DNA of 64,000 nt from Gammaproteobacteria bacterium (GTDB taxonomy: Bacteria > Pseudomonadota > Gammaproteobacteria > HK1), in contig JAJFJT010000004.1 of assembly GCA_021773795.1 (NCBI GenBank), positions 17,204-81,203 on the forward strand, written 5' to 3'. The notes under the pieces are model-generated. The model worked only from the letters and a program-made list of their open reading frames with translations. It had not been told where the DNA came from and made no database searches. This document shows, one piece after another, positions 8,374-28,801 of the stretch. Numbering within the stretch: position 1 is the first letter of the stretch; each line of letters starts with the position of its first letter. The position numbers and the translations under genes were made by a program.

Positions 8374-8402
8374 CGTCATACCGGTTCAAGCCCGGTATGA
8401 CG
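8374..8402. other. perfect 11-bp-stem hairpin in the hipB-hipA spacer
   Basis: CGTCATACCGG-TTCAAGC-CCGGTATGACG. Short T-rich tracts follow on both strands. Confidence 0.4.
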
Positions 8403-8517
8403 AAACCCTCTTTTATTTTCATGTCTCCCAAGCTCCTACGCATCCTTCTGGCCTTTACGAACAAGGTATCTGGCCGAACGCGCCAAAAGTTAGCGGGACA
8501 GCAGTAATTTGGCCCCT

Positions 8518-8763: not shown

Positions 8764-8777
8764 AATTACAGCCTATT

Positions 8778-8822
8778 TATCCGCTGCGCCGTATAGACTA
8801 TATATATGCGATTTAGCGGATA
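8778..8822 (-). promoter_or_regulatory. two HipB-type operator half-site pairs upstream of hipB
   Basis: TATCC-N8-GTATA (8778-8795) and TATGC-N8-GGATA (8805-8822). Each differs by one base from the E. coli hipBA operator pattern TATCC-N8-GGATA. The outer arms also form TTATCCGCT...AGCGGATAA. Confidence 0.45.
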
Positions 8823-9094
8823 ATATCGATTCCAGATGCTTAGCGGCGAACAACTACCACGAATCTGTTAGCAGGGATAACTCTACTGATTCAATGGCTT
8901 AATACGGGTTAGCACAGTCAAGATAAACTAAGAGCACACCAATAACTCAACCCCATTGTCTAGTACCCACGTCAAAAACAATCCAACTTCATGCACCACC
9001 TCCTCGCCCCTTTTATGCTATATTTAATTCACCCAATGGGTGAACGATATTCAATGCTCTAACGACCCCTTCGTGATGCCAAAAGGATTTCACC

Positions 9095-9397
9095 TTGATC
9101 GTTGTTTTCAGGACCAGGCAGCTGGAACGCCAATACAAGGATCATCGGAAGGCCGTTAGAGCATACGGCGAGGTTGTTGCCAAACGATACATATTGCGCA
9201 TCAACACAATCAAGCAAGCCCGGGATATTGAAGAATTGATGAAACTACCCGTGTTGCGATGCCACCAACTGAAAGGGAATCGGGCGGAGCAATATGCTGT
9301 CAATATCACCAGTTTCTATCGACTGATTTTTTCCCTTGAGGGTGAGATGCTGGAGATTGTCCGCATTGAGGAGATAAGCAAACACTATGGCAACTAA
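9095..9397 (+). CDS. HigB/plasmid-maintenance-killer family toxin (RelE/ParE superfamily, 100 aa)
   Basis: TTG start. Size and sequence (…LKGNRAEQYAVNITSFYRLIF…IVRIEEISKHY) are typical of HigB-type toxins. Overlaps the downstream HTH gene by 11 nt. Confidence 0.65.
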   Translation: MIVVFRTRQLERQYKDHRKAVRAYGEVVAKRYILRINTIKQARDIEELMKLPVLRCHQLKGNRAEQYAVNITSFYRLIFSLEGEMLEIVRIEEISKHYGN

Positions 9398-15346: not shown

Positions 15347-15452
15347 GGCCTTACCTGCTTATTATCACTCTAGCGCACTACACCTAATTTTCTCGGGAAC
15401 ACCTGCACAGATCTCTCCTTCTGCCCAGCCCCATGCCAGAATCCTTCTACCA

Positions 15453-16793
15453 CTACAACCCATACCTGTCGATGAGGCGGTAGATACTTCGCTCGCTAAC
15501 ACCCAGTCGCTCGGCCACAGTGGCGCGATGCCCTGAGTATTTCTTCAATAAGTTCGAAAGATATCTTGCTTCTATCTCTGCAAAAGTCGGCTCGTGATCA
15601 AAACTTAAATTAACGCCATGCACGGAGTTTCCCGCAGTCAGCGATGCGGTCAAATGCCGGCGCCTAATTTTCTTTTCATCCTGGGACAGGATGATGGCTC
15701 GCTCGACTGCATTTTTCAGTTCTCGCACATTGCCGGGCCAGTCATAGGTAGTCAGTGCACGCATGGCGTTGCGGGACACGACCGTATTGATCCGGCGGGA
15801 AAAATCATGATTACAAATAAAATGATCGACCAGTTCCCGGATATCTTCCCGGCGCTCTCGTAACGGCGGCACCGTGATAACAAAGGCGCTCAAGCGGTAG
15901 AACAGATCAGAGCGAAATCTCCCCTCTTCAACCGCCTTTTCCAGATCGCAGTTAGTGGCGGCTACGATGCGTACATTGGCCCGCAGATCTTTGGTTCCAC
16001 CCACCCTGCGAAACATGTTTGTCTCGATCAGCCGGAGCAATTTGGCTTGAACCGGGAGATCGATCTCGCCGATTTCGTCCAGAAACAGTGTTCCGTCCTT
16101 CCCGCCTTCTACCAGCCCCTTCTTCTGCCTGTCCGCCCCCGTAAAAGCACCGCGTTCAAAACCGAAGAGTTCTGATTCGAAAAGCTTCTCCGGCAAAGTA
16201 CAGCAGTCCACTGCAACGAAATTCCCCCCGGATCGGTCGCTGTGCTCATGAACGGTTTTTGCAACCAGCTCCTTGCCCACACCACTTTCTCCCTGGATCA
16301 GCACCGTCATATCGGTTGCCGCGACCATATTGATTAGGTGATGAACATCCTGTAACGCCCGACTGTGCCCAATCAGGAGCTTCCTGCCCTCGCTCGCCTG
16401 TAAACGCTGCTTACAGAACAGATGTTCTGCACGCAGGCTGATACGGGCCAGAGCACGCTGTACGACGATCTCCATCTCGTCGAGACTGACTGGCTTGGCG
16501 AGATAGTCCTCAACCCCCACCTTCGTGGCTCTTACCGCATCTTTTACCGAGGCAAAGGCCGTCATCACCACCACTGGATAGTCGCTGAGCAACTGCGGTA
16601 ACAACTCCATACCATCGGCATCGGGCAAACACACGTCCATGAGCACCAGATCAGGTTCATGGGCATCAAGATATTGCTTGGCCTCCGCCCAGGAATGAGC
16701 GATCTCCGCGGTGCAGCCAATATGCTTCAAGTGTTCAATGATGAGGCCACCCAGGGCCTTATCGTCTTCGATGACCAGCAGTTCCTTCTTCAC
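15453..16793 (-). CDS. sigma54-dependent response regulator (NtrC family, 446 aa)
   Basis: REC domain, AAA+ sigma54-interaction domain (GESGVGKE, ESELFGFERGAFTGA), and a C-terminal Fis-type HTH. Confidence 0.9.
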   Translation of the reverse strand: MKKELLVIEDDKALGGLIIEHLKHIGCTAEIAHSWAEAKQYLDAHEPDLVLMDVCLPDADGMELLPQLLSDYPVVVMTAFASVKDAVRATKVGVEDYLAKPVSLDEMEIVVQRALARISLRAEHLFCKQRLQASEGRKLLIGHSRALQDVHHLINMVAATDMTVLIQGESGVGKELVAKTVHEHSDRSGGNFVAVDCCTLPEKLFESELFGFERGAFTGADRQKKGLVEGGKDGTLFLDEIGEIDLPVQAKLLRLIETNMFRRVGGTKDLRANVRIVAATNCDLEKAVEEGRFRSDLFYRLSAFVITVPPLRERREDIRELVDHFICNHDFSRRINTVVSRNAMRALTTYDWPGNVRELKNAVERAIILSQDEKKIRRRHLTASLTAGNSVHGVNLSFDHEPTFAEIEARYLSNLLKKYSGHRATVAERLGVSERSIYRLIDRYGL

Positions 16794-18694
16794 TGCAATA
16801 CCTCACTATCGTTGTCGGCATCGGAAAGCAAAACGCTAAACCGACTGCCCTCCCCCGACTTACTCTCCGCCGTCACACTGCCGTGATAGCGATCAACAAT
16901 GGAACGAAGGATGGCGAGCCCAAGACCAGTGCCCCGCACGCTGTCCGCTCGCCGGCTAAAAAAGGGATGAAAAATATAAGGCAAATCCTGGGGGGCAATA
17001 CCGACTCCTGTATCCTTCACTATAAGTTCCACTTTTCCATCCATCCTCCGCGTGCTGACATAAAGGTTCCCACCCTCCGGCATTGCATGAAAGGCATTCT
17101 GGAGCAAATTGAAAATGATCGTACGAAATTCACTTTCGGTCGCCAGCACGCGTAGCTCTGTCGACGCCAAGCTCTGCACCACGGATACACCGTGCGCTTC
17201 AGCCTCCCAAACGAGCAGTGATAGGGTCTCCCGAATCGCCTTGTTTACCTCTACCAATTCGGGACTTCCGGGGGCAGCACTAAGCTTGAGCAAGCGCTTG
17301 GTGATATCAATGCACCGATCAATCTGATCGTCGATTATCTGTAGATAATTCCCAAATACAGAAATATCCACGCCGGAGCGATCCGCCGTATTTACCATCG
17401 AATTCAGGGCCATCCGGAGCGCTGTGAGCGGATTGTAGATTTCATGGGCGACACCAGCAGCCAGGCGACCCAAATCCGCCAACCGCTGCTCCTGTGAAAA
17501 TTGGGTTTTTTCCTCCAGATCGCGCACCGATTCAACGATAAGATCCTGGCCCATAGCGCCACCACACCCACGTAGCGGAATAGCCATTATCTCCACCGGG
17601 AATGTCTGACCGTCGGCCCGCACAAAGCGGTCAAGGTATTTCACCGGCCCATCTTCCTTGCGGGCTTCATACAGCGGGCAGCGGACGAGAGTGGGCGGAC
17701 AGGGTTCATTTCTCTGGTGACTCGAAGCATAACAGGGGCTACCAATGTCCGATTTGTCACCGAGCCCGACCTGCCTGCGGTAGGCAACATTGGACAACAC
17801 CACTCGATACTGTCCATCAATAACGCGAATACCATCTGGAAAGGTGTCCACCAATGCCTGCAGGAACCGGTCACGTTCCTCCATCTCACGCATGTTTCGC
17901 TCAAGACTCTCTGCCATGTGATTGAAGCTTTGGCCCAGTTCACCCAATTCATCGTGGCCGAGGATGGCCACCCGCGCATCAAGGCGCCCCTCGGCTATCG
18001 CCCGGCTGGCCTCACGCAATTGCCACACTGGCAGTAGTATGAAACGCCTCATAAACCACCACCCACCAGCGACCACAATCAGCAATACCACAGCACCAGA
18101 ACCCAGTAGTAACAGGGTGGTTCGCCACGCCTGCATACGGATCGGTGCGGCATCGTAATCAACGAACAGAACCCCGTTGAAAGGATGGCTCCGTACATCC
18201 CCGTGGCAACCGGTGCATGGAACTTTATTCCGCACCGGATTGACGCCTCTTACAATCTCTCTCCCCTGTTCGTTTACCAGGAAGATGGTTGTGCGCTCCT
18301 CGTGCTCGCCATCCTGATGGCATTCCATACAGCCAGTATTCCGATCGCGAGCATAACGGCGACCAAGCATTTCAGGGTTGGATGCGAATCGTACTTCTCC
18401 CTCAGTATTGAGAATCATGACGTTCACGACCCCCGGCTGACGGCCCAATTTGGCAACGATATCGCGCAGACCATCCAGGTCTCGTTTTAGCATTGCATTC
18501 TCCAGAGAGGTCTGTAGCAGCCGATTGATATCCCCCACGATCTGACCGCGTTCCGCCTCCAGTTGTGCCCGGTACATGGTGAGAAACAAGATCAACAATA
18601 CAAAAGAGCTCGTGATCAGGCCCGCTACGGTCCCGAGCATAAACTTACGGCTGAGGCCACTCTCGACCCACCGCCTGCCCTCCGAAAACAACAT
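16790..18694 (-). CDS. sensor histidine kinase with periplasmic dihaem-c-type sensor, HAMP, Cys-rich PAS, HisKA and HATPase (634 aa)
   Basis: Two TM segments flank a loop carrying CMECH and CTGCH. The PAS region has SPCYASSHQRNEPCPPTLVRCPLY. H-box AHEIYNPL. 4-nt overlap with the regulator gene. Confidence 0.85.
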   Translation of the reverse strand: MLFSEGRRWVESGLSRKFMLGTVAGLITSSFVLLILFLTMYRAQLEAERGQIVGDINRLLQTSLENAMLKRDLDGLRDIVAKLGRQPGVVNVMILNTEGEVRFASNPEMLGRRYARDRNTGCMECHQDGEHEERTTIFLVNEQGREIVRGVNPVRNKVPCTGCHGDVRSHPFNGVLFVDYDAAPIRMQAWRTTLLLLGSGAVVLLIVVAGGWWFMRRFILLPVWQLREASRAIAEGRLDARVAILGHDELGELGQSFNHMAESLERNMREMEERDRFLQALVDTFPDGIRVIDGQYRVVLSNVAYRRQVGLGDKSDIGSPCYASSHQRNEPCPPTLVRCPLYEARKEDGPVKYLDRFVRADGQTFPVEIMAIPLRGCGGAMGQDLIVESVRDLEEKTQFSQEQRLADLGRLAAGVAHEIYNPLTALRMALNSMVNTADRSGVDISVFGNYLQIIDDQIDRCIDITKRLLKLSAAPGSPELVEVNKAIRETLSLLVWEAEAHGVSVVQSLASTELRVLATESEFRTIIFNLLQNAFHAMPEGGNLYVSTRRMDGKVELIVKDTGVGIAPQDLPYIFHPFFSRRADSVRGTGLGLAILRSIVDRYHGSVTAESKSGEGSRFSVLLSDADNDSEVLQ

Positions 18695-18965
18695 TTTTCA
18701 GTTCCTCCCCTAGCCCGCCAAACGACGTCGAGAACCCTTATTTCCTCCGCATCATATCCCGTCCGGTCACATAATCCACCACCCCAAAAGCAGGTCATGC
18801 CAACTTGGCGCTTAACTATTTCCAAATTATTCAAGTAGTTAGGATTAGCGTGCCAATATAGCCGCCATTTTGTCAGATCTTTGTTACAGAAAAACCCTAC
18901 CGCGCTCCTACGCACTAAATAAAAATAACTTAAATATCCGTTACTTAGGTTGATTTCAAACACCT

Positions 18966-18981
18966 TGGCACCGTACTTGCT
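18966..18981 (+). promoter_or_regulatory. sigma54 (-24/-12) promoter
   Basis: TGGCAC-CGTAC-TTGCT is an exact match to the TGGCAC-N5-TTGCW consensus. It points at the 19105 gene and lies in the divergent region next to the sigma54 activator operon. Confidence 0.75.
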
Positions 18982-19018
18982 TAGGAGAATGACAGTCGAG
19001 TGCTGAACTCCTAATTAA

Positions 19019-19077
19019 CTTGAAGGGCCCGCTGTACCGGGGCCCCGAGCTTGAAGGGCCCGTCGTACCGGGCCCCC
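19019..19077 (+). repeat. two direct 28-bp GC-rich palindromic repeats in the predicted leader
   Basis: CTTGAAGGGCCCGCTGTACCGGGGCCCC and CTTGAAGGGCCCGTCGTACCGGGCCCCC. Each can fold as GGGCCC…GGGCCC. Confidence 0.7.
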
Positions 19078-19104
19078 GGGGCTGCTGACTTGGGTATCAC
19101 AACT

Positions 19105-19410
19105 TTGAAAAAATGGCGTTGGTGGATAGAGACGGGTACAGCGGCCCTTTTCCTCATCACCCTGACAGGTATCACGCGTGCGGACTACCCAGTGGCCGGA
19201 GTAGAGCCATCCGCACGACCTGCAGGCGCACCCACCATAACCGAGCCAGAAAAAGGTCCAGGCTGGTACCAGCAAGCCTTGACCGGAGTAAGTAAACCTT
19301 ACCCTTACAGCCTTCGCTTTCTCGAAGATCAGGGCAATTGGTATACGCCCTTCACCCAACCAGGCATGACTGCGCCTTACGACATCCGCAGTTGGCACCA
19401 CGAACCATGA
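19105..19410 (+). CDS. small secreted protein (101 aa), unknown function
   Basis: TTG start gives MKKWRWWIETGTAALFLITLTGITRA|DYP, a signal-peptide-like N-terminus. The C-terminus is aromatic-rich (PYPYSLRFLEDQGNWYTPFTQPGMTAPYDIRSWHH). The start codon is uncertain. Confidence 0.45.
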   Translation: MKKWRWWIETGTAALFLITLTGITRADYPVAGVEPSARPAGAPTITEPEKGPGWYQQALTGVSKPYPYSLRFLEDQGNWYTPFTQPGMTAPYDIRSWHHEP

Positions 19411-19486
19411 CAATCAATACGACCCGCTGAATGAGCGGGGTGATTCCATGTACTTAGTAATAACCTTAAATCAGGAGATAAGATCG

Positions 19487-20932
19487 ATGATTCGAATGCG
19501 TAGCTTCAAACGAGCAGCAGGATTGGCAGTGGTGATCGGCGCCCTCGTCGCCGCACCACAAGCCCAATCTCAGATGTCCGGCATGGGCGGTATGTCCGGC
19601 ATGGGCGGAATGTCCGGCATGGGCGGAATGTCCGGCATGGGCGGTATGTCCGGTATGGGCGGTATGTCCGGTATGGGCGGTATGTCCGGTATGGGCGGTA
19701 TGTCCGGTATGGGCGGTATGTCCGGCATGGGCGGTATGTCCGGCATGGGCGGTATGTCCGGCATGGGCGGAATGTCCGGCATGGGCGGTATGTCCGGCAT
19801 GGGCGGCATGTCCGGTATGCGCGGCATGGGCGGAATGAGTGGCATGGGCGGTATGTCCGGCATGGGCGGAATGTCCGGCATGCGTGGCATGGGCGGAATG
19901 TCCGGCATGCGTGGCATGGGCGGTATGTCCGGCATGCGTGGCATGGGCGGAATGTCCGGCATGGGCGGCATGTCCGGTATGCGCGGCATGGGCGGCATGT
20001 CCGGCATGCGTGGCATGGGCGGTATGTCCGGCATGCGTGGCATGGGCGGTATGTCCGGTATGCATGGCATGGGCGGCATGTCCGGCATGCGTGGCATGGG
20101 CGGTATGTCCGGCATGCATGGCATGGGCGGTATGTCCGGCATGCATGGCATGGGCGGCATGTCCGGCATGCGTGGCATGGGCGGCATGTCCGGCATGCGT
20201 GGTATGGGCGGAATGTCCGGCATGCGTGGCATGGGCGGCATGTCCGGCATGCGTGGTATGGGCGGTATGTCCGGCATGCGTGGCATGGGCGGTATGTCCG
20301 GCATGCGTGGCATGGGCGGAATGTCCGGCATGGGCGGTATGTCCGGCATGCGTGGCATGGGCGGAATGTCCGGCATGGGCGGCATGTCCGGTATGCGCGG
20401 CATGGGCGGAATGAGTGGCATGGGCGGTATGTCCGGCATGCATGGCATGGGCGGAATGTCCGGCATGCGTGGCATGGGCGGTATGCGCGGCATGGGCGGT
20501 ATGTCCGGCATGCATGGCATGGGCGGAATGTCCGGCATGCGTGGTATGGGCGGTATGTCCGGCATGCGTGGTATGGCCGGAATGCATGGCATGGGCGGAA
20601 TGGCCGGGATGCAAGGTATGGGCGGTCACCGCCAGCCTGTTAATACCGAAGGCAAGGCACGGAAACAGAGCGAGAGATGGCTGCGTGCCACCGGTCTGCC
20701 CGGTTATAGCATTGGCAAGATCCGCAAAGTTAACAACATTTATGTTGTCAGCGTAGTGGGCGCCAAACCACCGCATGCGCTAGCCAATCAGCTTGTCATC
20801 CGCCAGGCCGACGGAGCCATCGTGCCGATCAATCCGGTGCGTATCGCCCGCATGTCTGGAATGGGTGGCATGTCTGGAATGGGTGGTATGTCCGGTATGC
20901 AGGGCCGTAAAGGCTGGACACCCCCACGCTGA
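19487..20932 (+). CDS. secreted methionine-rich repeat protein (481 aa)
   Basis: ATG 10 nt after AGGAG. Signal peptide MIRMRSFKRAAGLAVVIGALVAAPQAQS. About 350 residues of GMGGMS and GM(R/H)GMGGMS units, then a ~75-aa non-repeat domain (…WLRATGLPGYSIGKIRKVNNIYVVSVV…LVIRQADGAIVPI), then three more MSGMGG units. Confidence 0.8.
   Translation: MIRMRSFKRAAGLAVVIGALVAAPQAQSQMSGMGGMSGMGGMSGMGGMSGMGGMSGMGGMSGMGGMSGMGGMSGMGGMSGMGGMSGMGGMSGMGGMSGMGGMSGMGGMSGMRGMGGMSGMGGMSGMGGMSGMRGMGGMSGMRGMGGMSGMRGMGGMSGMGGMSGMRGMGGMSGMRGMGGMSGMRGMGGMSGMHGMGGMSGMRGMGGMSGMHGMGGMSGMHGMGGMSGMRGMGGMSGMRGMGGMSGMRGMGGMSGMRGMGGMSGMRGMGGMSGMRGMGGMSGMGGMSGMRGMGGMSGMGGMSGMRGMGGMSGMGGMSGMHGMGGMSGMRGMGGMRGMGGMSGMHGMGGMSGMRGMGGMSGMRGMAGMHGMGGMAGMQGMGGHRQPVNTEGKARKQSERWLRATGLPGYSIGKIRKVNNIYVVSVVGAKPPHALANQLVIRQADGAIVPINPVRIARMSGMGGMSGMGGMSGMQGRKGWTPPR
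19574..20626 (+). repeat. 1,053-bp in-frame tandem array of 18-bp and 27-bp units
   Basis: ATGTCCGGCATGGGCGGT and ATGTCCGGCATGCGTGGCATGGGCGGT units. Variation is mostly at third codon positions. Confidence 0.95.
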
Positions 20933-20970
20933 TAAGGATTACAGCGCACCTAAGAAGCGTTAAAGGGGGC

Positions 20971-21001
20971 AGGGATACACGGATGTATCCCTTTTTCTTT
21001 T
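20971..21001 (+). terminator. rho-independent terminator after the Met-rich gene
   Basis: AGGGATACA-CGGA-TGTATCCCT stem-loop followed by TTTTCTTTT. Confidence 0.7.
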
Positions 21002-21044
21002 GCTTACCCAACCTACCCGAATTCAGAAAACAGGAGCATAGATT

Positions 21045-21851
21045 GTGCGGCTTGGCAGACTGGAGATCCTGGCGACACTGCTACTTGCAGCAGGCATCAC
21101 AACAATGGCCATCGCGGATACTGCCGAAATAGCCCGGCAGCAATATCATGCGGAACAGTGGAATCCTATCCACTTCAAGCCAGACATTGAACACGCGACT
21201 GACGAACAATGCCTGGGCTGTCATCAGCAAATACTTAAACGCAGAGTACTGAAGCAGTCACCTGCAGGGGTCAAGGCCAGCGAGTCGCTGGCGTGGTATC
21301 AGACACTCAGTACCTACGAAGGTGGCCAGGAAACCTTTCACCGACGCCATCTTTTAAGCAAGCTGGCAAAAAAAACAATGGACCTCAAATGCGTCACCTG
21401 CCACCAGGGCAACGATCCCCGTGAGGAGGCGCCTCCCCCGAATACAACGGACGCCGGATTTACCCTGCGCAAGATGGTGGATCCCAATACCTGTCTTATG
21501 TGTCACGGCAAGTTCAATTATCAACTCATGGGATTACCCGGACCGTGGCCGGAAGTCAGTAAGATATTTGGTGATTCCTGCCTGACTTGTCACATAGCCA
21601 TTCGCACCAACCGTCACCAGGTAAATTTCCTTCGTTCAGAAAACATCGAAAAAGCCGGCAAAGAAAATGCCGACGTTTGCTACGGCTGTCATGGAGGACG
21701 CGCCTGGTATCGCACCAGCTACCCCTATCCACGCCACAGTTGGCCGAGCATGGCCAAACAGGTCCCTGAATGGGCTAAGGATCGAGCAACAAAATCATTG
21801 CCGCGTTTCCTTCCGGCCACAACCCGAAAACAAGGCATGGAGGCACGGTGA
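21045..21851 (+). CDS. pentahaem c-type cytochrome (268 aa)
   Basis: GTG start after AGGAG. N-terminal signal or anchor peptide. Five CxxCH motifs: CLGCH, CVTCH, CLMCH, CLTCH, CYGCH. Confidence 0.85.
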   Translation: MRLGRLEILATLLLAAGITTMAIADTAEIARQQYHAEQWNPIHFKPDIEHATDEQCLGCHQQILKRRVLKQSPAGVKASESLAWYQTLSTYEGGQETFHRRHLLSKLAKKTMDLKCVTCHQGNDPREEAPPPNTTDAGFTLRKMVDPNTCLMCHGKFNYQLMGLPGPWPEVSKIFGDSCLTCHIAIRTNRHQVNFLRSENIEKAGKENADVCYGCHGGRAWYRTSYPYPRHSWPSMAKQVPEWAKDRATKSLPRFLPATTRKQGMEAR

Positions 21852-24436
21852 AAGACAAAAAATCAGATGGCGTAAAGACCATGGCCCACGACTCAATGAA
21901 ATTTATCTCATCCCGCCTGAATGTGAACAGGCGCTCGTTCCTCAAGGCCTCGGCCGCGACGACTACGGCGCTTACAGCCGGGGGATTGATCAATCTCGTG
22001 GGGGCCACAAAAGCCAAGGCCTTTGCCTACGAGCCCTATCCTGGCGACGATGAACTGGAGACAGTCGTCACCAGTTGCGCCCATAACTGTGGGTCCCGCC
22101 ACGTACTGGTAGCCCACAAAAAGGGAGACGTCATCGTACGCCTGTCAACGGACGACGGAAGCTATCAGCGTGCGGGGGAATTTGGCAAAGATACCCTGGA
22201 GGAACCCCAGTTGCGGGCCTGCTTGCGCGGCCGCTCCTATCGCCAGCGGATCTATTCCGCCGAACGCTTGCTGTACCCGATGATACGGGTCGGCAAACGT
22301 GGCGAGGGAAGATTCAAGCGTGCGTCCTGGGACGCTGTGCTTGATCACGTAGCTGGCAAAATGATCGCTTTGAAAGAAAAGTACGGGCCTACCGCCCTGC
22401 TGGATCAAAGCTACGCCGGCGCCTCCTATGGTGTCCTGCATAAATCCGACCAGATCGACGGCCTGCTTGGGCGGTTTCTCGGCATGTTTGGATCCAGGAC
22501 CAACTCCTGGTCCGTGCCATCCTATCAGGGCACCACCTTCAGCTCGCGCATGACCTTCGGCACCATTGAAGACGGCAACGAAGACGACGCCTTCGCTCAC
22601 TCCAAGCTGATCATCATGTGGGGCTGGAATCCCGCCTACACTTTTCACGGTGGCAATACGTTCTATTACATGCGGGTGGCAAAACAACGGGGCTGCAAGT
22701 TTGTTCTGATCGATCCGCAATATACGGATTCTGCAGCAGCCTACGATGCCTGGTGGATTCCCATTCGCCCCAATACTGACGCCGCAATGATGGCGGCCAT
22801 GGCCTATCACATCTTCACCAATAACCTTCAGGATCAGGATTTTATCGATCGTTTTTCCCAGGGAGTGGATGCGGGAAGCATGCCAGGTTGGGCCAAGGGC
22901 CAGGAAAATTTCAAGGACTATATCCTCGGAAAATACGACGACACTCCGAAGACCCCCGAATGGGCCGAAAAAATTTGTGGCGTCAAGGCTAGCGACATTC
23001 GAAAACTGGCGCAGATGTATACGGCCACCAAACCAGCGGCCCTCAAGGCCTCCTGGGCACCGGGACGCGCAGCCTACGGCGAACAGTACAATCGCATGGC
23101 TGCAGCCCTGCAAACCATGACAGGCAATATCGGCGTCCTCGGTGGATGCGCCGAGGGCGTGGGGAAGGCCTGGCACCCCGAGGGGACAGCCGGTCCCTAT
23201 GATGGAAACAACAATATCTGGTTCCAGTCCATCAAATCCGACCGCTGGGCGCACTGCGTCTTGAACTACCCCAATTTGCGGCGCGAGGAAATCGGTCTGT
23301 GGCCGCGTTCGGATAACACCGATGGACAGATCCCCAACATCCGCGGGATCTTCTGGCAAGGCTCAAACTGGTTCAATCAGCTTACTAACATCAACAAGGA
23401 GATCCAGGCCATTGCCAAGCTGGATTTCGTCGTGTGTATGGATTCCACCATTACCTCGTCAGGAATCTGGGCAGATGTGCTGCTGCCGGTTGCATCTCAT
23501 TTCGAGCGACATGACGTGGCACTTCCCTGGTACAAGGGGCATTACTACATCCATCGCCCAAAGGTCATTGAACCCCTGGGTGAGAGCAAAACCGATCTCC
23601 AGATCTTCACCGAACTCGCACGCCGTATCGACCCGCGATTCGCACAGCGTTACAACCCCAAGGCCGATCGGAATTATTTCCACTATAACGACGATGTTGA
23701 TGAGGCCTACCTGAACGAATGGTGGGACCAAAGGGTCATGGGCCATCAGGGGGTGACCATGCCTTGGGAAGAATTCAAGCAAAATGGTATCTACAAGTTC
23801 AAGCTGCCACGGCCCCATGTCGCGTTTCAGGATCAAATTGAAAAGGGTATCCCGTTCCAAACCGCTTCTGGAAAAATCGAGATTTTCTCGGGCCAGCTCG
23901 CCCAGATCACTGACTGGACCAAAACCAGTTATGGATATCCCATCCCCTCCATTCCCAAATGGATAGAGCCGTGGGAGTCACTCAACAGTCCGGAGGCCGC
24001 GAAACATCCATTCCATCTGATCTCACCCCATCCGCGCTGGCGCACCCACTCCATATTCAACAACTGTAGTTGGCTGCGGGAAACCTACGAACACGAAGTC
24101 ACCATCAGCACCACCGATGCTCGGAAACTGGGGCTCAAGACCGGTGACATCGTGGAAGTATGGAATGATCGCGGCAGGGTGGTGGTTCCGGTGTACGTTA
24201 GTGAACGCTGCATGCCCCGGGTTGCGGTGCTCTATGAAGGCGCATGGATGTACCTCGACAAAAATGGGGTGGATCGTGGTGGTAATCCTGATTTCCTGAC
24301 ACTGGATAAACCCAGCCCGGCAGGAGCCTTTGCCTACAACACGGTACTGGCCAGCATCCGCAAGACCCGCCTTACCCATCGGCCTGGCTGGGACAAGCTC
24401 AGCACCTCCCGTGCCCGGACCTTCCGGCACAAATAA
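21848..24436 (+). CDS. Tat-exported molybdopterin (bis-PGD) oxidoreductase catalytic subunit, DmsA/YnfE-like (862 aa)
   Basis: GTGA overlap with the cytochrome gene, with GGAGG upstream. Twin-arginine motif NRRSFLK. DmsA-like blocks SCAHNCGSRH, RACLRGRSYRQRIYSAERLLYPM, IDPQYTDSAA…WIPIRPNTDAA, TASGKIEIFS. Confidence 0.85.
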   Translation: MKDKKSDGVKTMAHDSMKFISSRLNVNRRSFLKASAATTTALTAGGLINLVGATKAKAFAYEPYPGDDELETVVTSCAHNCGSRHVLVAHKKGDVIVRLSTDDGSYQRAGEFGKDTLEEPQLRACLRGRSYRQRIYSAERLLYPMIRVGKRGEGRFKRASWDAVLDHVAGKMIALKEKYGPTALLDQSYAGASYGVLHKSDQIDGLLGRFLGMFGSRTNSWSVPSYQGTTFSSRMTFGTIEDGNEDDAFAHSKLIIMWGWNPAYTFHGGNTFYYMRVAKQRGCKFVLIDPQYTDSAAAYDAWWIPIRPNTDAAMMAAMAYHIFTNNLQDQDFIDRFSQGVDAGSMPGWAKGQENFKDYILGKYDDTPKTPEWAEKICGVKASDIRKLAQMYTATKPAALKASWAPGRAAYGEQYNRMAAALQTMTGNIGVLGGCAEGVGKAWHPEGTAGPYDGNNNIWFQSIKSDRWAHCVLNYPNLRREEIGLWPRSDNTDGQIPNIRGIFWQGSNWFNQLTNINKEIQAIAKLDFVVCMDSTITSSGIWADVLLPVASHFERHDVALPWYKGHYYIHRPKVIEPLGESKTDLQIFTELARRIDPRFAQRYNPKADRNYFHYNDDVDEAYLNEWWDQRVMGHQGVTMPWEEFKQNGIYKFKLPRPHVAFQDQIEKGIPFQTASGKIEIFSGQLAQITDWTKTSYGYPIPSIPKWIEPWESLNSPEAAKHPFHLISPHPRWRTHSIFNNCSWLRETYEHEVTISTTDARKLGLKTGDIVEVWNDRGRVVVPVYVSERCMPRVAVLYEGAWMYLDKNGVDRGGNPDFLTLDKPSPAGAFAYNTVLASIRKTRLTHRPGWDKLSTSRARTFRHK

Positions 24437-24466
24437 CACCTTGAATTCAGGAGATAGATAGGCGCT

Positions 24467-25132
24467 ATGGGTACGCTTAAAGATCGAGCAAAAATCAAGG
24501 CGGCGGTTATCCGGCGCAAAAAAGAAACCTATGTCCCGGTCATCCCGGAAAAGCAGCTGGGATTCATCCACCACAATGTGGATTGTATCGGCTGCCGGGC
24601 CTGTGAGATTGCATGCAAAGACAAAAATGGCCTGCCTCCCGGTCCCCGATTCCGGAGAGTGCAGTATATCGAAGGTGGGACCTATCCAGAGGTTTACGCC
24701 TATAAGCTGAACATGTCCTGTAATCACTGCGCTGAGCCGGCATGCCTCCCTGTTTGCCCCACCGGCGCCATCTTCAAGCGCAAGAGAGACGGCATCGTCG
24801 ACATAGACTCTACGCTCTGTATCGGATGCCGCCGCTGCGAGGCGGCCTGTCCCTACGGTGCGCCACAATTCGATCCGATCGCGCGTATAGTCAAAAAATG
24901 CAACCTTTGCGTGGATGAGATTGATGCCGGACGGCAGCCTTACTGCGTGATGGCCTGCATGATGCGGGTGCTTGACGTCGGGCCTATCGACCAGATCTGG
25001 AAAAACAAATTGGTTACCAAGGCAACAGGCCCCACTGACAAGGTAGTACGTCAGGTTAAACACATGGCCGATCCTGAGTTGACCAAACCATCTATTGGAT
25101 TTATTCCCCACAGCAAGGGAAAAGTTGAGTGA
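24467..25132 (+). CDS. 4x[4Fe-4S] electron-transfer subunit, DmsB-like (221 aa)
   Basis: Four Cys clusters: CIGCRACEIAC, CNHCAEPACLPVCP, CIGCRRCEAACP, CNLC…CVMAC. Confidence 0.85.
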   Translation: MGTLKDRAKIKAAVIRRKKETYVPVIPEKQLGFIHHNVDCIGCRACEIACKDKNGLPPGPRFRRVQYIEGGTYPEVYAYKLNMSCNHCAEPACLPVCPTGAIFKRKRDGIVDIDSTLCIGCRRCEAACPYGAPQFDPIARIVKKCNLCVDEIDAGRQPYCVMACMMRVLDVGPIDQIWKNKLVTKATGPTDKVVRQVKHMADPELTKPSIGFIPHSKGKVE

Positions 25133-25896
25133 CCGCTGTTTCCAAGGCCGTTCCCGACCATCGGCTAGTGGAATTCCGTACGGCGGTGGCGGCAGACTTG
25201 ACCGTGCTTGCAATCCTGCACGAACGGGAAGCCGACAATGATCTGATCCAATCGCTAAAGACCACAGGCTTTCCGAAATCGCTGGGCCTCAAACTGATAT
25301 CAAGGCAAGGATGCGATGCCACACGGATGATGCAAAATGCCTTGACTGAATTGTCGGACCCATTGGCTCCAGATGATACCGACGAACTTGCGGCGGATTA
25401 CGCTGCCATCTATCTTCTCCATGCCCTTGCCGCCTCTCCTAACGAATCCTTTTGGGTGGATGAAGATCACCTTGAGCGGCAACTGTCCATGTTTCAGGTC
25501 CGTGCCTGCTACAAACGCCACGGACTGGCGGCGGCCGACTGGCGAAAGCGCTCCGACGATCACCTGACACTACAGCTTCAGTTTCTCACCCGTCTCATTG
25601 AACCGGAGAAACCGGGCGACGCCTGGAGCGAAATGGCACAGTTCATGGATGAACACCTGCTCCGCTGGCTGGAAAAATTTGCACTCAGAGTGGCAAACCG
25701 TTGCACAACCGAATTCTATGGCGGCGCTGTATTACTCACCAATGCTTACTGTGAGGAGCTGCGGGAGCTGCTAGCCCGGATCCTTGAAACTCCCCGTCCT
25801 TCCCGTGAAGAAATCGAGACGCGCATGAAAACCACCACGCCAGCACCGGTGGTCTCCGTAAAATTCATGCCCGGAGCTGATGGCCCGTCCTGGTAA
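25129..25896 (+). CDS. TorD/DmsD-family redox-enzyme maturation chaperone (255 aa)
   Basis: GTGA overlap with the FeS subunit gene. Position and helical, acidic sequence (…ELAADYAAIYLLH…) are typical of TorD-like REMPs. Confidence 0.6.
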   Translation: MTAVSKAVPDHRLVEFRTAVAADLTVLAILHEREADNDLIQSLKTTGFPKSLGLKLISRQGCDATRMMQNALTELSDPLAPDDTDELAADYAAIYLLHALAASPNESFWVDEDHLERQLSMFQVRACYKRHGLAAADWRKRSDDHLTLQLQFLTRLIEPEKPGDAWSEMAQFMDEHLLRWLEKFALRVANRCTTEFYGGAVLLTNAYCEELRELLARILETPRPSREEIETRMKTTTPAPVVSVKFMPGADGPSW

Positions 25897-26016
25897 ACAA
25901 AGCCTTGGAAAGGCAGGTCAGAGTTGAGAAAGGTCTGAATAATTTCATCCTGGAATTTTCCAGACCAGACCAAAGAAATGCGGGCTAGCCAGGTAGACTC
26001 AGCCACCAACCGCAGC

Positions 26017-26742
26017 CTAGCCTGCTGCGACCTCCCCCGCCATCAGGAATACCCTGCCATCAACCAGCACCTTGGCCGCCGCGCAAAGACTCTGCCGCGC
26101 TTTGTGAAACTCCCAAGCCAAACCTGGCAGCACGCCAATGTCCGCGGGGTGGTGCAGCAGACCTTTACAGACTGAACTTGGCCGCAACCCACCGTCTTCA
26201 TCAAGTGCCGAGGCGATCCACGGTGGCAAGGTTCGCGCCAAGGGATCCACCACTGCACGCACCACCAGAAAGGGTAGACCCGCATTAAAGGCAACGGCAG
26301 CAACCGCCGCACTTTCCATATCGGCCGCCACCGCGTTGCCAGTGCTCACGAGGGTTTGTTTGGCCAGCGGTGTGGCGAGTATCCCCGGGGTATGCGCCAT
26401 CGCGCCAACGGCAAAGTCCAGACCACTGGACGCCAGCATGTTGCTGACCCGCGTGTGCCATGCGGCATTTACGGGCAGTACGCTGTGTTCAGCGTAAACA
26501 TCCGTGGGAAGCAGCAGACTGCCGGCGGATAGATCCGGGGAAAGGCCCGCGGCAACCCCCCAACTCAGCAGCGCCTGAACGCCCTCTTCCAGCAATGCCT
26601 CCGCGCACTGCCGGGCAGCCTCAGCACCGGGACCCGAGACACCGATGCGGATATCGTGGCCGCCTGGAAGGCCGGATGCGATTACTTTATTCAGGCAATC
26701 CGCCTCGATGGCCAGAGCGCAAACAATGCCTGTAGTGGTCAA
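26017..26742 (-). CDS. hpnG: hopanoid-associated phosphorylase-family protein (PNP/UDP fold)
   Basis: Nucleoside-phosphorylase-like sequence (GIVCALAIEA…ADMESAAVA). 4-nt overlap with shc. Confidence 0.65.
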   Translation of the reverse strand: MTTTGIVCALAIEADCLNKVIASGLPGGHDIRIGVSGPGAEAARQCAEALLEEGVQALLSWGVAAGLSPDLSAGSLLLPTDVYAEHSVLPVNAAWHTRVSNMLASSGLDFAVGAMAHTPGILATPLAKQTLVSTGNAVAADMESAAVAAVAFNAGLPFLVVRAVVDPLARTLPPWIASALDEDGGLRPSSVCKGLLHHPADIGVLPGLAWEFHKARQSLCAAAKVLVDGRVFLMAGEVAAG

Positions 26743-28718: not shown

Positions 28719-28801
28719 CGCACGTGCTCCCCGTCATAAATCCAGTTGCTGAAATCCATATACGGCACCTCGATCACTTCAACTCAAATGTTTATTCCAC
28801 C

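What the first reader, a model, noticed from the sequence alone, without database searches (positions are those of the whole stretch)
19487..20932. Secreted 481-aa protein made almost entirely of GMGGMS / GM(R/H)GMGGMS repeats
A Sec-type signal peptide is followed by 351 codons of 6- and 9-residue units in which every third residue is Met (on the order of 115 Met), interspersed with Arg or His. A ~75-aa globular-looking domain and three further repeats complete the protein. I know of no characterised protein with this composition at this scale. Met-rich periplasmic segments are known in two settings. One is Cu(I)/Ag(I) binding (Mets motifs in CopA/PcoA, CusF, SilE/PcoE). The other is a sacrificial oxidant scavenger (the small MrpX peptide of Azospira suillum, which works with a periplasmic Met-sulfoxide reductase).
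Basis: partly seen in the sequence, partly recalled or inferred. Interest (0 to 1): 0.85.

Follow-up and report, generated by a model that had tools for sequence, protein, structure and literature searches.

The report
Giant secreted methionine-glycine repeat protein
A secreted protein built from 117 back-to-back Met-x-Gly triplets is real. It is the extreme member of an undescribed gene family that always sits next to a periplasmic molybdenum sulfoxide-reductase operon in sulfur-oxidising bacteria, which suggests (untested) a rechargeable methionine "sponge" for oxidants.

Summary
ORF 19487-20932 (+) encodes 481 aa with 125 Met and 179 Gly. Residues 30-380 are 117 uninterrupted M-x-G triplets, followed by a PepSY-like domain and a short repeat tail.

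It is not an orphan. In 75 of 75 related loci with enough upstream DNA, an (MxG)n gene lies directly upstream of the same operon: pentahaem cytochrome c, Tat-exported DmsA-like molybdoenzyme, DmsB-like Fe-S subunit and TorD-like chaperone. A conserved ~100-aa secreted protein, sigma-54 promoter boxes and a haem-c sensor kinase with a sigma-54 regulator accompany it. Hosts include Sedimenticola, Ca. Thiodiazotropha, Competibacter, Thiothrix and Thiocapsa.

The reductase is closest to DorA, TorZ/MtsZ and TorA. DorA and E. coli DmsABC are published as methionine-sulfoxide reducers.

Best reading (about 0.45): a periplasmic sacrificial poly-methionine oxidant sink, recycled by a dedicated quinol-driven sulfoxide reductase. 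This is analogous to MrpX-MsrPQ, but I found no homology to it. Rivals are a Cu(I)/Ag(I) buffer (the array is a continuous MxxM motif), a "methionine-bristle" hydrophobic or sulfur binder, and a structural polymer.

I found no paper describing the family. The window copy is the longest array and is unusually cationic (pI ~12). Its length needs long-read confirmation.

The parts
15453..16793 (-). Sigma-54-dependent response regulator (receiver + AAA+ sigma-54 activator + Fis-type HTH), divergent from the operon
   Evidence: Pfam Sigma54_activat 7.5e-66, Response_reg, HTH_8. Homologues at 50-71% identity lie next to the cluster in most loci with enough flank.
16790..18694 (-). Sensor histidine kinase with a periplasmic domain carrying two c-haem binding motifs (CMECH at residue 122, CTGCH at residue 160), then HAMP-PAS-HisKA-HATPase
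   Evidence: Pfam hits. At least one CxxCH is kept in 34 of 35 homologous sensor domains.
18966..18980 (+). Sigma-54 -24/-12 promoter box TGGCACCGTACTTGC
   Evidence: It is the only exact match to TGGCAC-N5-TTGC in the 64-kb window. Similar boxes (at most 1 mismatch) lie 50-130 bp upstream of the 'small' gene in about 20 related loci.
19105..19410 (+). Small secreted protein (~100 aa, mature ~76 aa; motif ALTGxxxPYPxSLRFLEDQGNWYTPFxxPGMxxPYDIRxWH). First gene of the operon. The start codon is uncertain; TTG 19105 is proposed.
   Evidence: 231 homologues, all unnamed and without a Pfam family. 23 invariant columns in a 35-sequence alignment. 47-68% identical copies sit in the same position in nearly all related loci (one outlier at 39%). 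The AF2 model is poor (pLDDT 67).
19487..19573 (+). Start codon and Sec-type signal peptide of the Met-rich protein (residues 1-29)
   Evidence: SD AGGAGA 8 nt upstream. The sequence has n/h/c regions and an AQA/AQS site, read by eye. Signal-like N-termini are visible in the family members printed.
19574..20626 (+). (M-x-G)117 array: 43 units of MSGMGG, MSGM(R/H)GMGG and variants
   Evidence: It is the longest uninterrupted run among 75 sources; the others have a median of 21 and a maximum of 73 triplets.
20636..20851 (+). PepSY-like alpha + 4-beta domain (residues ~384-455)
   Evidence: AF2 pLDDT 89.9. Best PDB fold match is the YpeB C-terminal PepSY domains, 5boi: probability 1.0, TMq 0.65, E 0.022. 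191 homologous cluster representatives. No Pfam hit. In most relatives it is the C-terminus of a separate secreted protein in the same cluster.
20852..20932 (+). Terminal MSGMGG repeats plus the conserved tail ...QGRKGWTPPR, and the stop codon
   Evidence: Tails of the form ...W[TNQS]PP.. or ...GMSGW[RKN] end most family members.
20971..21002 (+). GC-containing hairpin (AGGGATACACGGATGTATCCCT) followed by TTTTCTTTTG, between the Met-rich gene and the cytochrome gene. Possible partial terminator or mRNA-stabilising element.
   Evidence: Terminator-like site. A hairpin plus T tract is found in the same intergenic gap in 20 of 39 related loci. Its function is inferred.
21045..21851 (+). Pentahaem c-type cytochrome (5 CxxCH; N-terminal signal or anchor), the putative electron donor to the reductase
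   Evidence: Pfam Cytochrome_C7, Cytochrom_NNT and Paired_CXXCH hits. Five CxxCH motifs. 51-67% identical and syntenic in 79 loci.
21848..24436 (+). Tat-exported DmsA/YnfE-like molybdopterin S-/N-oxide reductase catalytic subunit
   Evidence: TIGR02166 dmsA_ynfE 3e-176, 588 bits, below the 778-bit cut-off; Tat signal. Nearest structures: DorA 1eu1 1.5e-73, TorZ/MtsZ 7l5i, TorA. A Ser aligns with the DorA position I take, from memory, to be the Mo-ligand Ser147. Clade signature C-AHN-C-GSR-H in all 76 motif matches among the related loci. 75-82% identical in 80 genomes.
24467..25132 (+). DmsB-like 4x[4Fe-4S] electron-transfer subunit
   Evidence: TIGR02951 DMSO_dmsB 3.1e-56; Fer4_11. 70-82% identity in relatives.
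25129..25896 (+). TorD/DmsD-type Tat-proofreading chaperone
   Evidence: Pfam Nitrate_red_del 1.1e-18; NCBIfam TorD 1.2e-18.

Best explanation
**Proposal.** The protein is a periplasmic, intrinsically flexible poly-methionine 'redox sponge', and it is the dedicated macromolecular substrate of the reductase encoded next to it.

**Proposed cycle (inferred unless marked otherwise):**
1. A haem-c-containing periplasmic sensor kinase and its sigma-54 activator switch on one operon.
2. The small secreted protein and the Met-rich protein are made and exported by Sec. A hairpin after the Met-rich gene may let them be made in excess.
3. The ~120 exposed thioethers are oxidised to methionine sulfoxide by fast two-electron oxidants such as HOCl/HOBr, chloramines, chlorite-derived species or peroxynitrite. 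This spares the sulfur-oxidation and respiratory machinery of the periplasm.
4. In this particular protein, the 20 Arg and 6 His inside the array (pI ~12) would attract anionic oxidants.
5. The Tat-exported DmsA-like molybdoenzyme reduces the sulfoxides back to Met. Electrons would come from the quinol pool through the pentahaem cytochrome and the DmsB-like Fe-S subunit. The sink is thus recharged by the respiratory chain.
6. The PepSY-like domain and the conserved W-containing tail may dock the polymer to its partners.

**Shown:** the sequence anatomy, secretion signals, operon structure, strict synteny, and the family assignment of the enzyme.
**Inferred:** Met oxidation in vivo, the enzyme's substrate, the direction of electron flow, and the identity of the oxidant.
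For: **1. Strict gene linkage.**
- An (MxG)n ORF ends 60-470 bp upstream of the cytochrome/DmsA-like/DmsB-like/TorD-like genes in 75 of 75 related loci that have more than 160 bp of upstream DNA.
- The hosts span Gamma-, Beta- and Alphaproteobacteria.

**2. Shared regulation.**
- The only perfect sigma-54 box in the window precedes the operon. Such boxes recur in about 20 relatives.
- A sigma-54 activator and sensor kinase are adjacent.
- The sensor keeps a CxxCH haem motif in 34 of 35 loci. This fits redox or oxidant sensing.

**3. The enzyme is an S-/N-oxide reductase type.**
- Best NCBIfam family is dmsA_ynfE.
- Nearest solved structures are DorA, TorZ/MtsZ and TorA, with a Ser aligned at the Mo-ligand position.
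- DorA reduces protein-bound MetO as well as it reduces free MetO (PMC7402097).
- E. coli DmsABC reduces MetSO and is induced by HOCl (PMC12096835).

**4. Precedent for the logic.** MrpX, a secreted peptide with 20% Met, is oxidised by hypochlorite and recycled by a periplasmic Mo enzyme in one regulon (PMC4436054).

**5. Selection acts on the peptide, not the DNA.** Variation is at wobble positions only, and each unit has several synonymous versions.

**6. Possible excess of substrate over enzyme.** A hairpin plus T tract follows the Met-rich gene here and in 20 of 39 loci. This would give excess 'substrate' over enzyme.

**7. Exposed, flexible chain.** 37% Gly and no hydrophobic core. MxG arrays also occur as tails on other periplasmic redox proteins.
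Against: - There is no experimental datum on expression, on Met oxidation or on the enzyme's substrate. Synteny does not prove a substrate relationship.
- The enzyme could simply respire DMSO or another small oxide, as lucinid-symbiont papers annotate it (PMC11237559).
- Thioethers react slowly with H2O2 (my own knowledge). The sink only makes sense for HOCl-like or peroxynitrite-like oxidants, and their relevance in sediments and activated sludge is assumed.
- MxG tails also occur next to fccAB/soxYZ sulfide-oxidation genes, without a sulfoxide reductase in view. That hints at a role tied to sulfur chemistry rather than to oxidants.
- The array is also a perfect MxxM Cu(I) motif.
- MrpX is rich in charged residues, whereas most family members here are nearly uncharged.
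Confidence: 0.45

Rival explanations
1. Periplasmic Cu(I)/Ag(I) buffer or store. The array is a continuous run of MxxM thioether sites, about three Met per metal, so dozens of Cu(I) per chain. It would sequester Cu(I) under low-oxygen, reducing conditions. The reductase would at most keep the thioethers reduced so that they can bind metal.
For: - M-x-G-M is the MxxM spacing of 'Mets' motifs. Papers describe methionine-only MxMxxM and MxxM sites as Cu(I)/Ag(I)-selective (PMC9117721, PMC10669542; found, abstracts only).
- The k-mer search also pulled out Met-rich stretches in CusB-like adaptor proteins and an EfeO-type cupredoxin (P0009, P0013, P0014, P0018).
- The window protein carries 6 His inside the array.
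Against: - No cop, cus, pco or multicopper-oxidase genes lie near the cluster. The adjacent P-type ATPase is Ca/Mg-type II (679 bits against 185 bits for the Cu type), and it is not conserved in relatives.
- In the family as a whole, x is S/G/N/Q, with H 3 and R 0 out of about 3,700 positions.
- In the window protein, 30 Arg give pI ~12. That should repel cations.
- Strict synteny with an S-oxide reductase is not explained by metal binding alone.
Confidence: 0.18
2. 'Methionine-bristle' binder. The array would be a flexible, hydrophobic but soluble polymer that coats hydrophobic material in the periplasm. The material could be unfolded proteins (holdase, like the GGM tail of GroEL) or elemental sulfur/polysulfane in sulfur-storing bacteria. 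Its stickiness would be switched off by Met oxidation and restored by the reductase.
For: - The family is concentrated in sulfur-oxidising, sulfur-storing lineages: Thiodiazotropha, Sedimenticola, Thiothrix, Thiocapsa, Beggiatoa-like.
- MxG tails occur on a NapC/NirT cytochrome directly downstream of fccAB and near soxYZ, and on a DsrE-like protein.
- GroEL carries a conserved Gly-Met-rich tail (PMC11978752, found, abstract only).
- Most members have interspersed aromatic beta-hairpin-like motifs, YFxITPxGxIxFYP and GxWVWxP. These could form a small folded core with MxG loops.
Against: - Carriers include Competibacter, Hyphomicrobiales and Rhodocyclaceae. As far as I know these do not store sulfur.
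- No sgp-like or sulfur-globule genes were seen in the cluster.
- This reading needs the same untested MetSO reduction step to explain the synteny.
- The window protein is strongly cationic, not a typical holdase surface.
Confidence: 0.15
3. Structural Gly-every-third-residue polymer. It would form a collagen-like or polyglycine-II helix fibre, or a periplasmic gel or spacer, with Met only as a tolerated side chain. Its neighbourhood to the reductase would be for co-expression only.
For: - Gly sits at every third position for 351 residues.
- Pfam Collagen scores 37.5 bits, above its 27.2-bit threshold. NCBIfam collagen-like adhesins give 26-61 bits.
- An OmpA-like peptidoglycan-binding protein carries an array (P0001).
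Against: - The collagen hits have no single stretch that passes on its own, and they are far below the NCBIfam cut-offs of 325-500 bits.
- There is no Pro, and there are almost no charge pairs of the kind that stabilise bacterial collagens (established knowledge).
- Met is invariant at 117 of 117 positions, while the neighbouring x varies. So Met itself is selected, not only Gly.
Confidence: 0.07
4. Not a real gene product, or an assembly artefact. This would be a DNA microsatellite that happens to be open in several frames, or an array whose length is mis-assembled.
For: - All six frames are open across the repeat.
- Short-read contigs break at these arrays.
- Some long-read MAG copies show frameshifts (L003, L066).
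- The exact protein is not on record elsewhere.
Against: - The wobble-only variation pattern, the SD, the signal peptide, the folded C-terminal domain in the same frame, and conservation of that frame in 75 loci across three proteobacterial classes all argue for a real gene.
- Only the exact unit count remains open.
Confidence: 0.03

Closest known systems
MrpX - YedY1Z1 (MsrPQ) hypochlorite-scavenging system of Azospira suillum PS (PMC4436054)
   Same: A Sec-exported, Met-rich, probably unfolded protein is encoded with a Tat-exported periplasmic molybdoenzyme and a dedicated envelope-stress regulator. The proposed logic is the same: sacrificial Met oxidation followed by enzymatic recycling.
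   Different: - MrpX is small, 20% Met and 44% charged residues. This protein is 481 aa, 26% Met and 37% Gly, with a strict M-x-G period, a folded PepSY-like domain and few acidic residues.
- The partner enzyme is a bis-MGD DmsA-type reductase with an Fe-S subunit and a pentahaem cytochrome. It is not the sulfite-oxidase-fold MsrP with MsrQ.
- The regulator is a haem-c sensor kinase with a sigma-54 activator, not SigF/NrsF.
- I found no sequence homology.
DorA / DmsABC / TorZ(MtsZ) S-oxide reductases that reduce methionine sulfoxide
   Same: - The catalytic subunit belongs to the same family. It has a Tat signal, a Ser aligned at the Mo-ligand position, a TorD/DmsD-type chaperone and a multihaem c-type cytochrome partner, as in Dor and Tor systems.
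- DorA reduces protein-bound MetO (PMC7402097). DmsABC reduces MetSO and responds to HOCl (PMC12096835).
   Different: - It is a distinct clade: 588 bits against the 778-bit cut-off of dmsA_ynfE.
- The FS0 motif is C-x3-C-x3-H, conserved in all 76 motif matches among the related loci.
- The architecture is hybrid: a DmsB-like subunit plus a soluble or anchored pentahaem cytochrome, and no DmsC.
- It is always accompanied by the Met-rich gene, the small secreted protein and, in most loci, a PepSY-like protein.
- Its substrate is unknown.
Mets-motif Cu(I)/Ag(I) sites (Ctr1 N-terminus, CopA/PcoA Met-rich loops, CusF, PcoE/SilE)
   Same: Thioether-only MxxM spacing, repeated. Periplasmic or extracellular location.
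   Different: - Those motifs are short (3-10 Met), usually mixed with His or Asp, and encoded in copper-resistance or copper-uptake loci.
- Here there are 117 Met in a row, no copper genes nearby, and Arg-rich spacers.
Gly-Met-rich C-terminal tail of GroEL, (GGM)4M (PMC11978752)
   Same: The G-G-M tripeptide repeat is chemically the same unit: flexible and weakly hydrophobic.
   Different: The GroEL tail is 13 residues, cytoplasmic and part of a chaperonin. The array here is 351 residues, secreted and free-standing.
Bacterial collagen-like proteins (Scl1/Scl2, Lcl) and polyglycine-II helix proteins
   Same: Gly at every third residue over hundreds of residues. It produces Pfam and NCBIfam collagen hits.
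   Different: There is no Pro and there are no stabilising charge pairs. The hits are compositional and far below the family cut-offs. Met, not only Gly, is invariant.

Membership tests
MrpX-type sacrificial Met-rich periplasmic peptide system | Secreted (signal peptide) Met-rich protein | tested here: met
   Signal-peptide-like N-terminus and 26% Met. The signal peptide was judged by eye; no predictor was run.
MrpX-type sacrificial Met-rich periplasmic peptide system | Encoded with an MsrP/YedY (sulfite-oxidase-fold Mo enzyme) and MsrQ/YedZ | tested here: not met
   The neighbouring enzyme is a DmsA/DmsB-type bis-MGD reductase with a pentahaem cytochrome. No YedY/YedZ-type gene was found in the cluster genes tested (12638-26742).
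MrpX-type sacrificial Met-rich periplasmic peptide system | Met residues oxidised by HOCl in vivo and re-reduced by the partner enzyme | not testable with these tools
   This needs biochemistry: a gel shift or MS of MetSO, as in PMC4436054.
MrpX-type sacrificial Met-rich periplasmic peptide system | Sequence similarity to MrpX, or MrpX-like composition (about 44% charged residues) | tested here: not met
   Composition is G 37%, M 26%, S 11%, with D+E 0.6% and R+K 8%. I had no MrpX sequence to align; the comparison is with the composition given in PMC4436054.
DMSO reductase family, DmsA/YnfE-type S-/N-oxide reductase (neighbouring gene 21848-24436) | Molybdopterin oxidoreductase and MGD-binding domains, Tat signal | tested here: met
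   PF00384 1.3e-44, PF01568 1.5e-20, TAT_signal.
DMSO reductase family, DmsA/YnfE-type S-/N-oxide reductase (neighbouring gene 21848-24436) | Score above the curated cut-off of TIGR02166 dmsA_ynfE | tested here: not met
   587.8 bits against a cut-off of 777.7. It is a related but separate clade.
DMSO reductase family, DmsA/YnfE-type S-/N-oxide reductase (neighbouring gene 21848-24436) | Ser ligand to Mo (S-/N-oxide reductase type) rather than Cys, SeCys or Asp | tested here: met
   In the phmmer alignment to DorA 1eu1, a Ser of the query (…SVPSY…) aligns with the Ser of DorA's …GDYST…. That this is the Mo-ligand Ser147 is from my memory of the DorA structure. The context NSWSVPSY recurs in 30 relatives.
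DMSO reductase family, DmsA/YnfE-type S-/N-oxide reductase (neighbouring gene 21848-24436) | Canonical DmsA FS0 motif (four Cys) | tested here: not met
   The motif is C-AHN-C-GSR-H…C, with His in place of the third Cys. It is conserved in all 76 motif matches among the related loci. The comparison with E. coli DmsA is from memory.
DMSO reductase family, DmsA/YnfE-type S-/N-oxide reductase (neighbouring gene 21848-24436) | Membrane anchor subunit DmsC | tested here: not met
   No NrfD/DmsC-like ORF is in the operon. A pentahaem cytochrome is present instead.
Mets-motif Cu(I)/Ag(I)-binding proteins | MxxM / MxM thioether motifs | tested here: met
   117 Met at i, i+3 spacing.
Mets-motif Cu(I)/Ag(I)-binding proteins | Genomic or regulatory association with copper/silver homeostasis genes | tested here: not met
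   None was found among the cluster genes tested (12638-26742), nor among the ten other large ORFs sampled elsewhere in the window. The ATPase at 12638-15346 is type II and is not syntenic in relatives.
Mets-motif Cu(I)/Ag(I)-binding proteins | Measured Cu(I)/Ag(I) binding | not testable with these tools
   Needs ITC, ICP-MS or XAS.
Collagen triple-helix repeat proteins (PF01391; Scl/Lcl) | Gly-X-Y periodicity | tested here: met
   Gly at every third residue for 351 residues.
Collagen triple-helix repeat proteins (PF01391; Scl/Lcl) | Family-level score, and Pro or charge-rich X/Y positions | tested here: not met
   NCBIfam 26-61 bits against cut-offs of 325-500. The Pfam hit has no individually significant stretch. 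There is no Pro in the array.
PepSY-like domain (C-terminal domain, residues ~384-455) | Alpha-helix packed on a 4-stranded sheet, ~60-70 aa | tested here: met
   AF2 elements H8-22, E27-35, E38-45, E52-59, E65-68, pLDDT 89.9. The top PDB fold hit is the YpeB PepSY domains, probability 1.0, TMq 0.65.
PepSY-like domain (C-terminal domain, residues ~384-455) | Sequence match to Pfam PepSY models | tested here: not met
   No Pfam hit, even at E = 5. The Foldseek E-value is only 0.022.

The most novel reading that the evidence does not exclude
Sulfur-oxidising and other redox-interface bacteria may possess a previously unrecognised periplasmic organ: a protein-based thioether/sulfoxide redox polymer wired to the quinol pool through its own clade of DmsA-type reductase. 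The polymer carries tens to more than a hundred Met per chain. Beyond passive scavenging, it could act in two further ways. It could be a rechargeable two-electron buffer, accepting oxidising equivalents in oxic pulses and passing them to the respiratory chain. Or it could be a redox switch of hydrophobicity that controls the handling of stored sulfur. The MxG module would be a portable 'tag' that is also fused to NapC/NirT cytochromes, DsrE-like proteins and OmpA-like proteins.
Probability: 0.15. Interest if true: 0.92.

Novelty: new variant of a known kind. Interest (0 to 1): 0.78.

Why it matters
- **A general strategy, if right.** The concept of a sacrificial methionine sink rests on one small peptide in one perchlorate reducer. 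This finding would make it a widespread, modular strategy of environmentally dominant sulfur oxidisers and animal symbionts (lucinid clams, tubeworms, activated-sludge Competibacter). The sink would be driven by a different, respiratory-chain-coupled molybdoenzyme.
- **A candidate substrate for an orphan enzyme clade.** It would give a physiological substrate to a conserved clade that genome papers currently label 'DMSO reductase' (PMC11237559).
- **Three unnamed families placed in a testable system.** These are the (MxG)n proteins, the ~100-aa secreted protein, and the PepSY-like domain with its RGW-repeat proteins.
- **A systematic blind spot explained.** The arrays break short-read assemblies: 29 of 75 contigs start inside them. 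That may be why the gene has gone unnoticed.
- **Material interest.** A natural 351-residue (M-x-G)n polymer is an unusual chain whose hydrophobicity can be switched by oxidation, and which may load metal.

Tried and rejected
- **K-mer homology search with the 75-aa globular domain:** nothing. The exhaustive HMMER search was needed.
- **Whole-protein k-mer search:** dominated by composition. It found only 26 hits, mostly other proteins with MxG stretches. That was useful for spotting fusions but not for delimiting the family.
- **Exact-sequence look-up of the Met-rich protein:** not on record.
- **Pfam and NCBIfam on the Met-rich protein:** only compositional collagen and adhesin hits, which I rejected as membership.
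- **Pfam on the small protein and on the C-terminal domain:** no family.
- **AF2 of the small secreted protein:** low confidence (pLDDT 67, pTM 0.33), so I ran no fold search on it.
- **RNA fold of the gap between the small gene and the Met-rich gene (19405-19490):** not different from shuffles (z = -0.58), so I make no claim about it.
- **Sigma-70 promoter scan:** fewer sites than in shuffles.
- **Literature searches** linking 'methionine-rich' to these taxa, to DMSO reductase in sulfur oxidisers, or to Met/Gly repeats found no description of this family.
- **'Energy-storage capacitor' as the main function:** considered and set aside. This is my own order-of-magnitude reasoning: about 250 electrons per chain is seconds of respiration at most.
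- **Link to the neighbouring P-type ATPase:** set aside, because it is type II and not syntenic in relatives.

Full report
**1. The observation**

ORF 19487-20932 (+) is present exactly as described.
- It encodes 481 aa with 125 Met (26%), 179 Gly (37%), 51 Ser, 33 Arg and 8 His.
- After a signal-peptide-like N-terminus (MIRMRSFKRAAGLAVVIGALVAAPQAQSQ), residues 30-380 are 117 uninterrupted M-x-G triplets. Here x = G 45, S 43, R 20, H 6, A 2, Q 1.
- The triplets parse into 19 MSGMGG, 17 MSGMRGMGG, 5 MSGMHGMGG and two composite units.
- TRF reports period 27 x 36.6 copies at 82% matches.
- A strong Shine-Dalgarno (AGGAGA) sits 8 nt before the ATG.
- The mature protein is about 454 aa and 43.6 kDa, with pI ~12 (R30, K6, H8 against D1, E2).

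**2. Is it a gene or a satellite?**

All six frames are open across the repeat, so openness is not evidence. Four things argue for this frame.
- Codon positions 1-2 of Met and Gly are invariant in 117 of 117 units. The Gly third position is C65/T36/A15/G1.
- Each peptide unit occurs in up to seven synonymous DNA versions.
- The same frame continues into a domain that AF2 folds with pLDDT 89.9.
- The same frame, with signal peptide, is conserved in 75 other loci.

The unit count is the weak point. The longest exact internal DNA repeat is 80-99 nt. The only public contig with the identical downstream genes starts just after the array (L001). The exact protein is not on record. 29 related contigs begin inside their arrays.

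**3. Context in the window**

Divergently upstream lie two regulators:
- a sigma-54-dependent response regulator (15453-16793, -);
- a sensor kinase (16790-18694, -) whose periplasmic domain has two CxxCH haem-c motifs.

The only perfect TGGCAC-N5-TTGC box in 64 kb is at 18966-18980 (+). It is followed by:
- a small secreted ORF (~19105-19410);
- the Met-rich gene;
- a hairpin plus T tract (20971-21002);
- a pentahaem cytochrome c (21045-21851);
- a Tat-exported DmsA/YnfE-like molybdoenzyme (21848-24436);
- a DmsB-like Fe-S protein (24467-25132);
- a TorD-like chaperone (25129-25896).

The upstream P-type ATPase is Ca/Mg-type II, not a copper pump.

**4. Comparative genomics**

A scan of species-representative genomes with the DmsA-like protein gave 592 relatives. 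The best 80 are 75-82% identical. They come from:
- Sedimenticola, Ca. Thiodiazotropha and other lucinid and tubeworm symbionts;
- Competibacter, Thiothrix, Thiocapsa/Chromatiaceae and Beggiatoa-like bacteria;
- some Beta- and Alphaproteobacteria.

tblastn of the window's proteins against these loci shows a conserved cluster. It holds the sensor kinase and sigma-54 regulator, a secreted PepSY-like protein, the small secreted protein, the (MxG)n protein, the cytochrome, DmsA-like, DmsB-like and TorD-like genes.

Every one of the 75 loci with more than 160 bp upstream of the cytochrome gene has an (MxG)n ORF ending 60-470 bp before it. The four loci without one simply lack upstream sequence.

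Further conserved features:
- Sigma-54 boxes recur upstream of the small gene in about 20 loci.
- A hairpin plus T tract recurs after the Met-rich gene in 20 of 39 loci.
- The sensor keeps a CxxCH in 34 of 35 loci.
- The reductase clade carries a private FS0 signature, C-AHN-C-GSR-H, in all 76 motif matches among the related loci.

**5. How the window protein differs from its family**
- Typical members are 170-500 aa, with x = S/G/N/Q. H is seen 3 times and R never in about 3,700 positions.
- Typical arrays are interrupted by aromatic motifs, YFxITPxGxIxFYP and GxWVWxP (79 and 47 occurrences). They end in ...GMSGW[RKN] or ...W[TNQS]PP...
- The window protein has none of the aromatic motifs. 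It has the longest uninterrupted run: 117 triplets against a median of 21 and a maximum of 73. It is polycationic.
- It carries, fused near its C-terminus, the PepSY-like domain that in most relatives ends a separate secreted protein with 'LRxLLEARGWRVERxADGSxLLYP' repeats.
- Only L007 and L036 (Sedimenticolaceae and Sedimenticola) show a similar (MxG)n-domain fusion, and they have it in addition to the standard gene.
- The domain has 191 homologous cluster representatives. Several are again flanked by MxG stretches (P0151, P0153, P0159). It has no Pfam family. Its best fold match is the YpeB PepSY domains.

**6. The other unnamed partner**

The small secreted protein has 231 homologues, all 'hypothetical' and without a Pfam family. 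A 35-sequence alignment has 23 invariant columns. AF2 does not fold it on its own. One reading, which is inference only, is that it binds in extended form to a partner such as the reductase.

**7. What the enzyme is**
- The best NCBIfam match is dmsA_ynfE, at 588 bits, below the 778-bit cut-off.
- The nearest solved structures are Rhodobacter DorA (1.5e-73), H. influenzae TorZ/MtsZ (7l5i) and TorA. A Ser aligns with the DorA position that I take, from memory, to be the Mo-ligand Ser147. So it is an S-/N-oxide reductase type.
- E. coli DmsABC reduces MetSO and is induced by HOCl (PMC12096835).
- Lucinid-symbiont genomics annotates these genes simply as dmsAB 'DMSO reductase'. The passages I retrieved do not mention the Met-rich neighbour (PMC11237559).

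**8. Best explanation**

A thioether-rich secreted polymer is strictly linked to, and co-regulated with, a periplasmic sulfoxide-type reductase. That is most simply explained if the oxidised polymer is the enzyme's substrate. The system would then be a sacrificial Met sink recharged from the quinol pool. This is the logic shown for MrpX-YedYZ in Azospira (PMC4436054). The parts here are unrelated to those, and the scale is far larger. I give this about 0.45.

**9. Rivals**
- **Cu(I)/Ag(I) buffering (0.18).** The array is a continuous MxxM motif (PMC9117721, PMC10669542). However, there is no copper context, His is almost absent from the family, and this copy is Arg-rich.
- **Methionine-bristle binder for unfolded proteins or elemental sulfur, possibly redox-switched (0.15).** MxG tails occur on a NapC/NirT cytochrome next to fccAB/soxYZ and on a DsrE-like protein. 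There is also the GroEL GGM-tail analogy (PMC11978752).
- **Structural Gly-x-y polymer (0.07).**
- **Artefact (0.03).**

**10. Novelty**

Seven literature searches found no description of this family or of its linkage. The library is incomplete, so absence there is not proof. I rate it a new variant of a known kind: a Met sink plus a molybdenum MetSO reductase, using different protein families, a different architecture and a different host range. The function is entirely untested.

Noticed in passing
L082 8001-8873, L085 8001-8879 (proteins P0007, P0006); also P0015, P0003, P0001 (L086 8001-9044): (MxG)n arrays also occur as C-terminal tails on NapC/NirT-type tetrahaem cytochromes. Those genes lie directly downstream of flavocytochrome-c sulfide dehydrogenase (fccAB) and near soxYZ. 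Arrays are also found on a DsrE-like protein and on an OmpA-like peptidoglycan-binding protein. The module looks portable among periplasmic proteins of sulfur oxidisers.
   Followed up: partly
window 21848-24436 (residues ~75-84); L002-L081: The DmsA-like clade has the N-terminal cluster motif C-AHN-C-GSR-H, with His where E. coli DmsA (from memory) has the third Cys. It is conserved in all 76 motif matches among the related loci. L005 holds two such genes.
   Followed up: partly
window 20971-21002; same gap in 20 of 39 related loci: A hairpin followed by a T-rich tract lies between the Met-rich gene and the cytochrome gene. Thiodiazotropha and Sedimenticola share GGGCGCAGGGATGCGCCC-TTTTCT. 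It may be a partial terminator or a stabiliser giving different amounts of the upstream and downstream products.
   Followed up: partly
L003 3782-4753, L004 3628-4707, L078 3907-5442, L047 13576-15432 and others: Secreted proteins made of 2-7 copies of a ~35-aa repeat, 'F(E/D)xLRxLLExRGW(R/H)VERxADGS(T/L)LLYP', ending in the PepSY-like domain. This is an unnamed family within the cluster. It is absent as a separate gene in the window, where the domain is fused to the Met-rich protein.
   Followed up: partly
L007 3110-4132: In the complete Sedimenticolaceae chromosome, a Cys-rich ferredoxin-like ORF (340 aa) lies between the (MxG)73-PepSY gene and the RGW-repeat gene. It is not present in the window cluster.
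   Followed up: no
L003 5558-7076, L066 5995-7093, L008 and L067 (runs of N/X): Several long-read or scaffolded MAG copies of the Met-rich gene show frameshifts or masked stretches inside the array. This illustrates how error-prone these loci are in assemblies.
   Followed up: no
window 16790-18694 (-), residues 122-164: The sensor kinase has two CxxCH motifs in its periplasmic domain. One is conserved in 34 of 35 homologues, and both only in the window's closest relatives. It is a candidate haem-c redox or gas sensor of unknown signal.
   Followed up: partly
window 26017-29890 (-): A hopanoid biosynthesis block (HpnG-like phosphorylase, squalene-hopene cyclase, squalene/phytoene synthase) lies immediately downstream of the operon. 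It is not syntenic with the cluster in relatives.
   Followed up: no
window 1-6000 and 7046-10469: There is a low-GC stretch (39-46% against ~55-60% elsewhere). A HipA-family toxin gene lies at 7046-8341 (-) and an HTH plus M78-peptidase (IrrE-like) gene at 9387-10469 (+). This looks like a mobile or accessory region. The 773-aa ORF at 3634-5955 (-) has no Pfam hit.
   Followed up: no
window 44134-47259 (-): A 1,041-aa DNA polymerase III alpha-type ORF. By its length it could be an error-prone DnaE2-type paralogue rather than the replicative DnaE. Not examined further.
   Followed up: no
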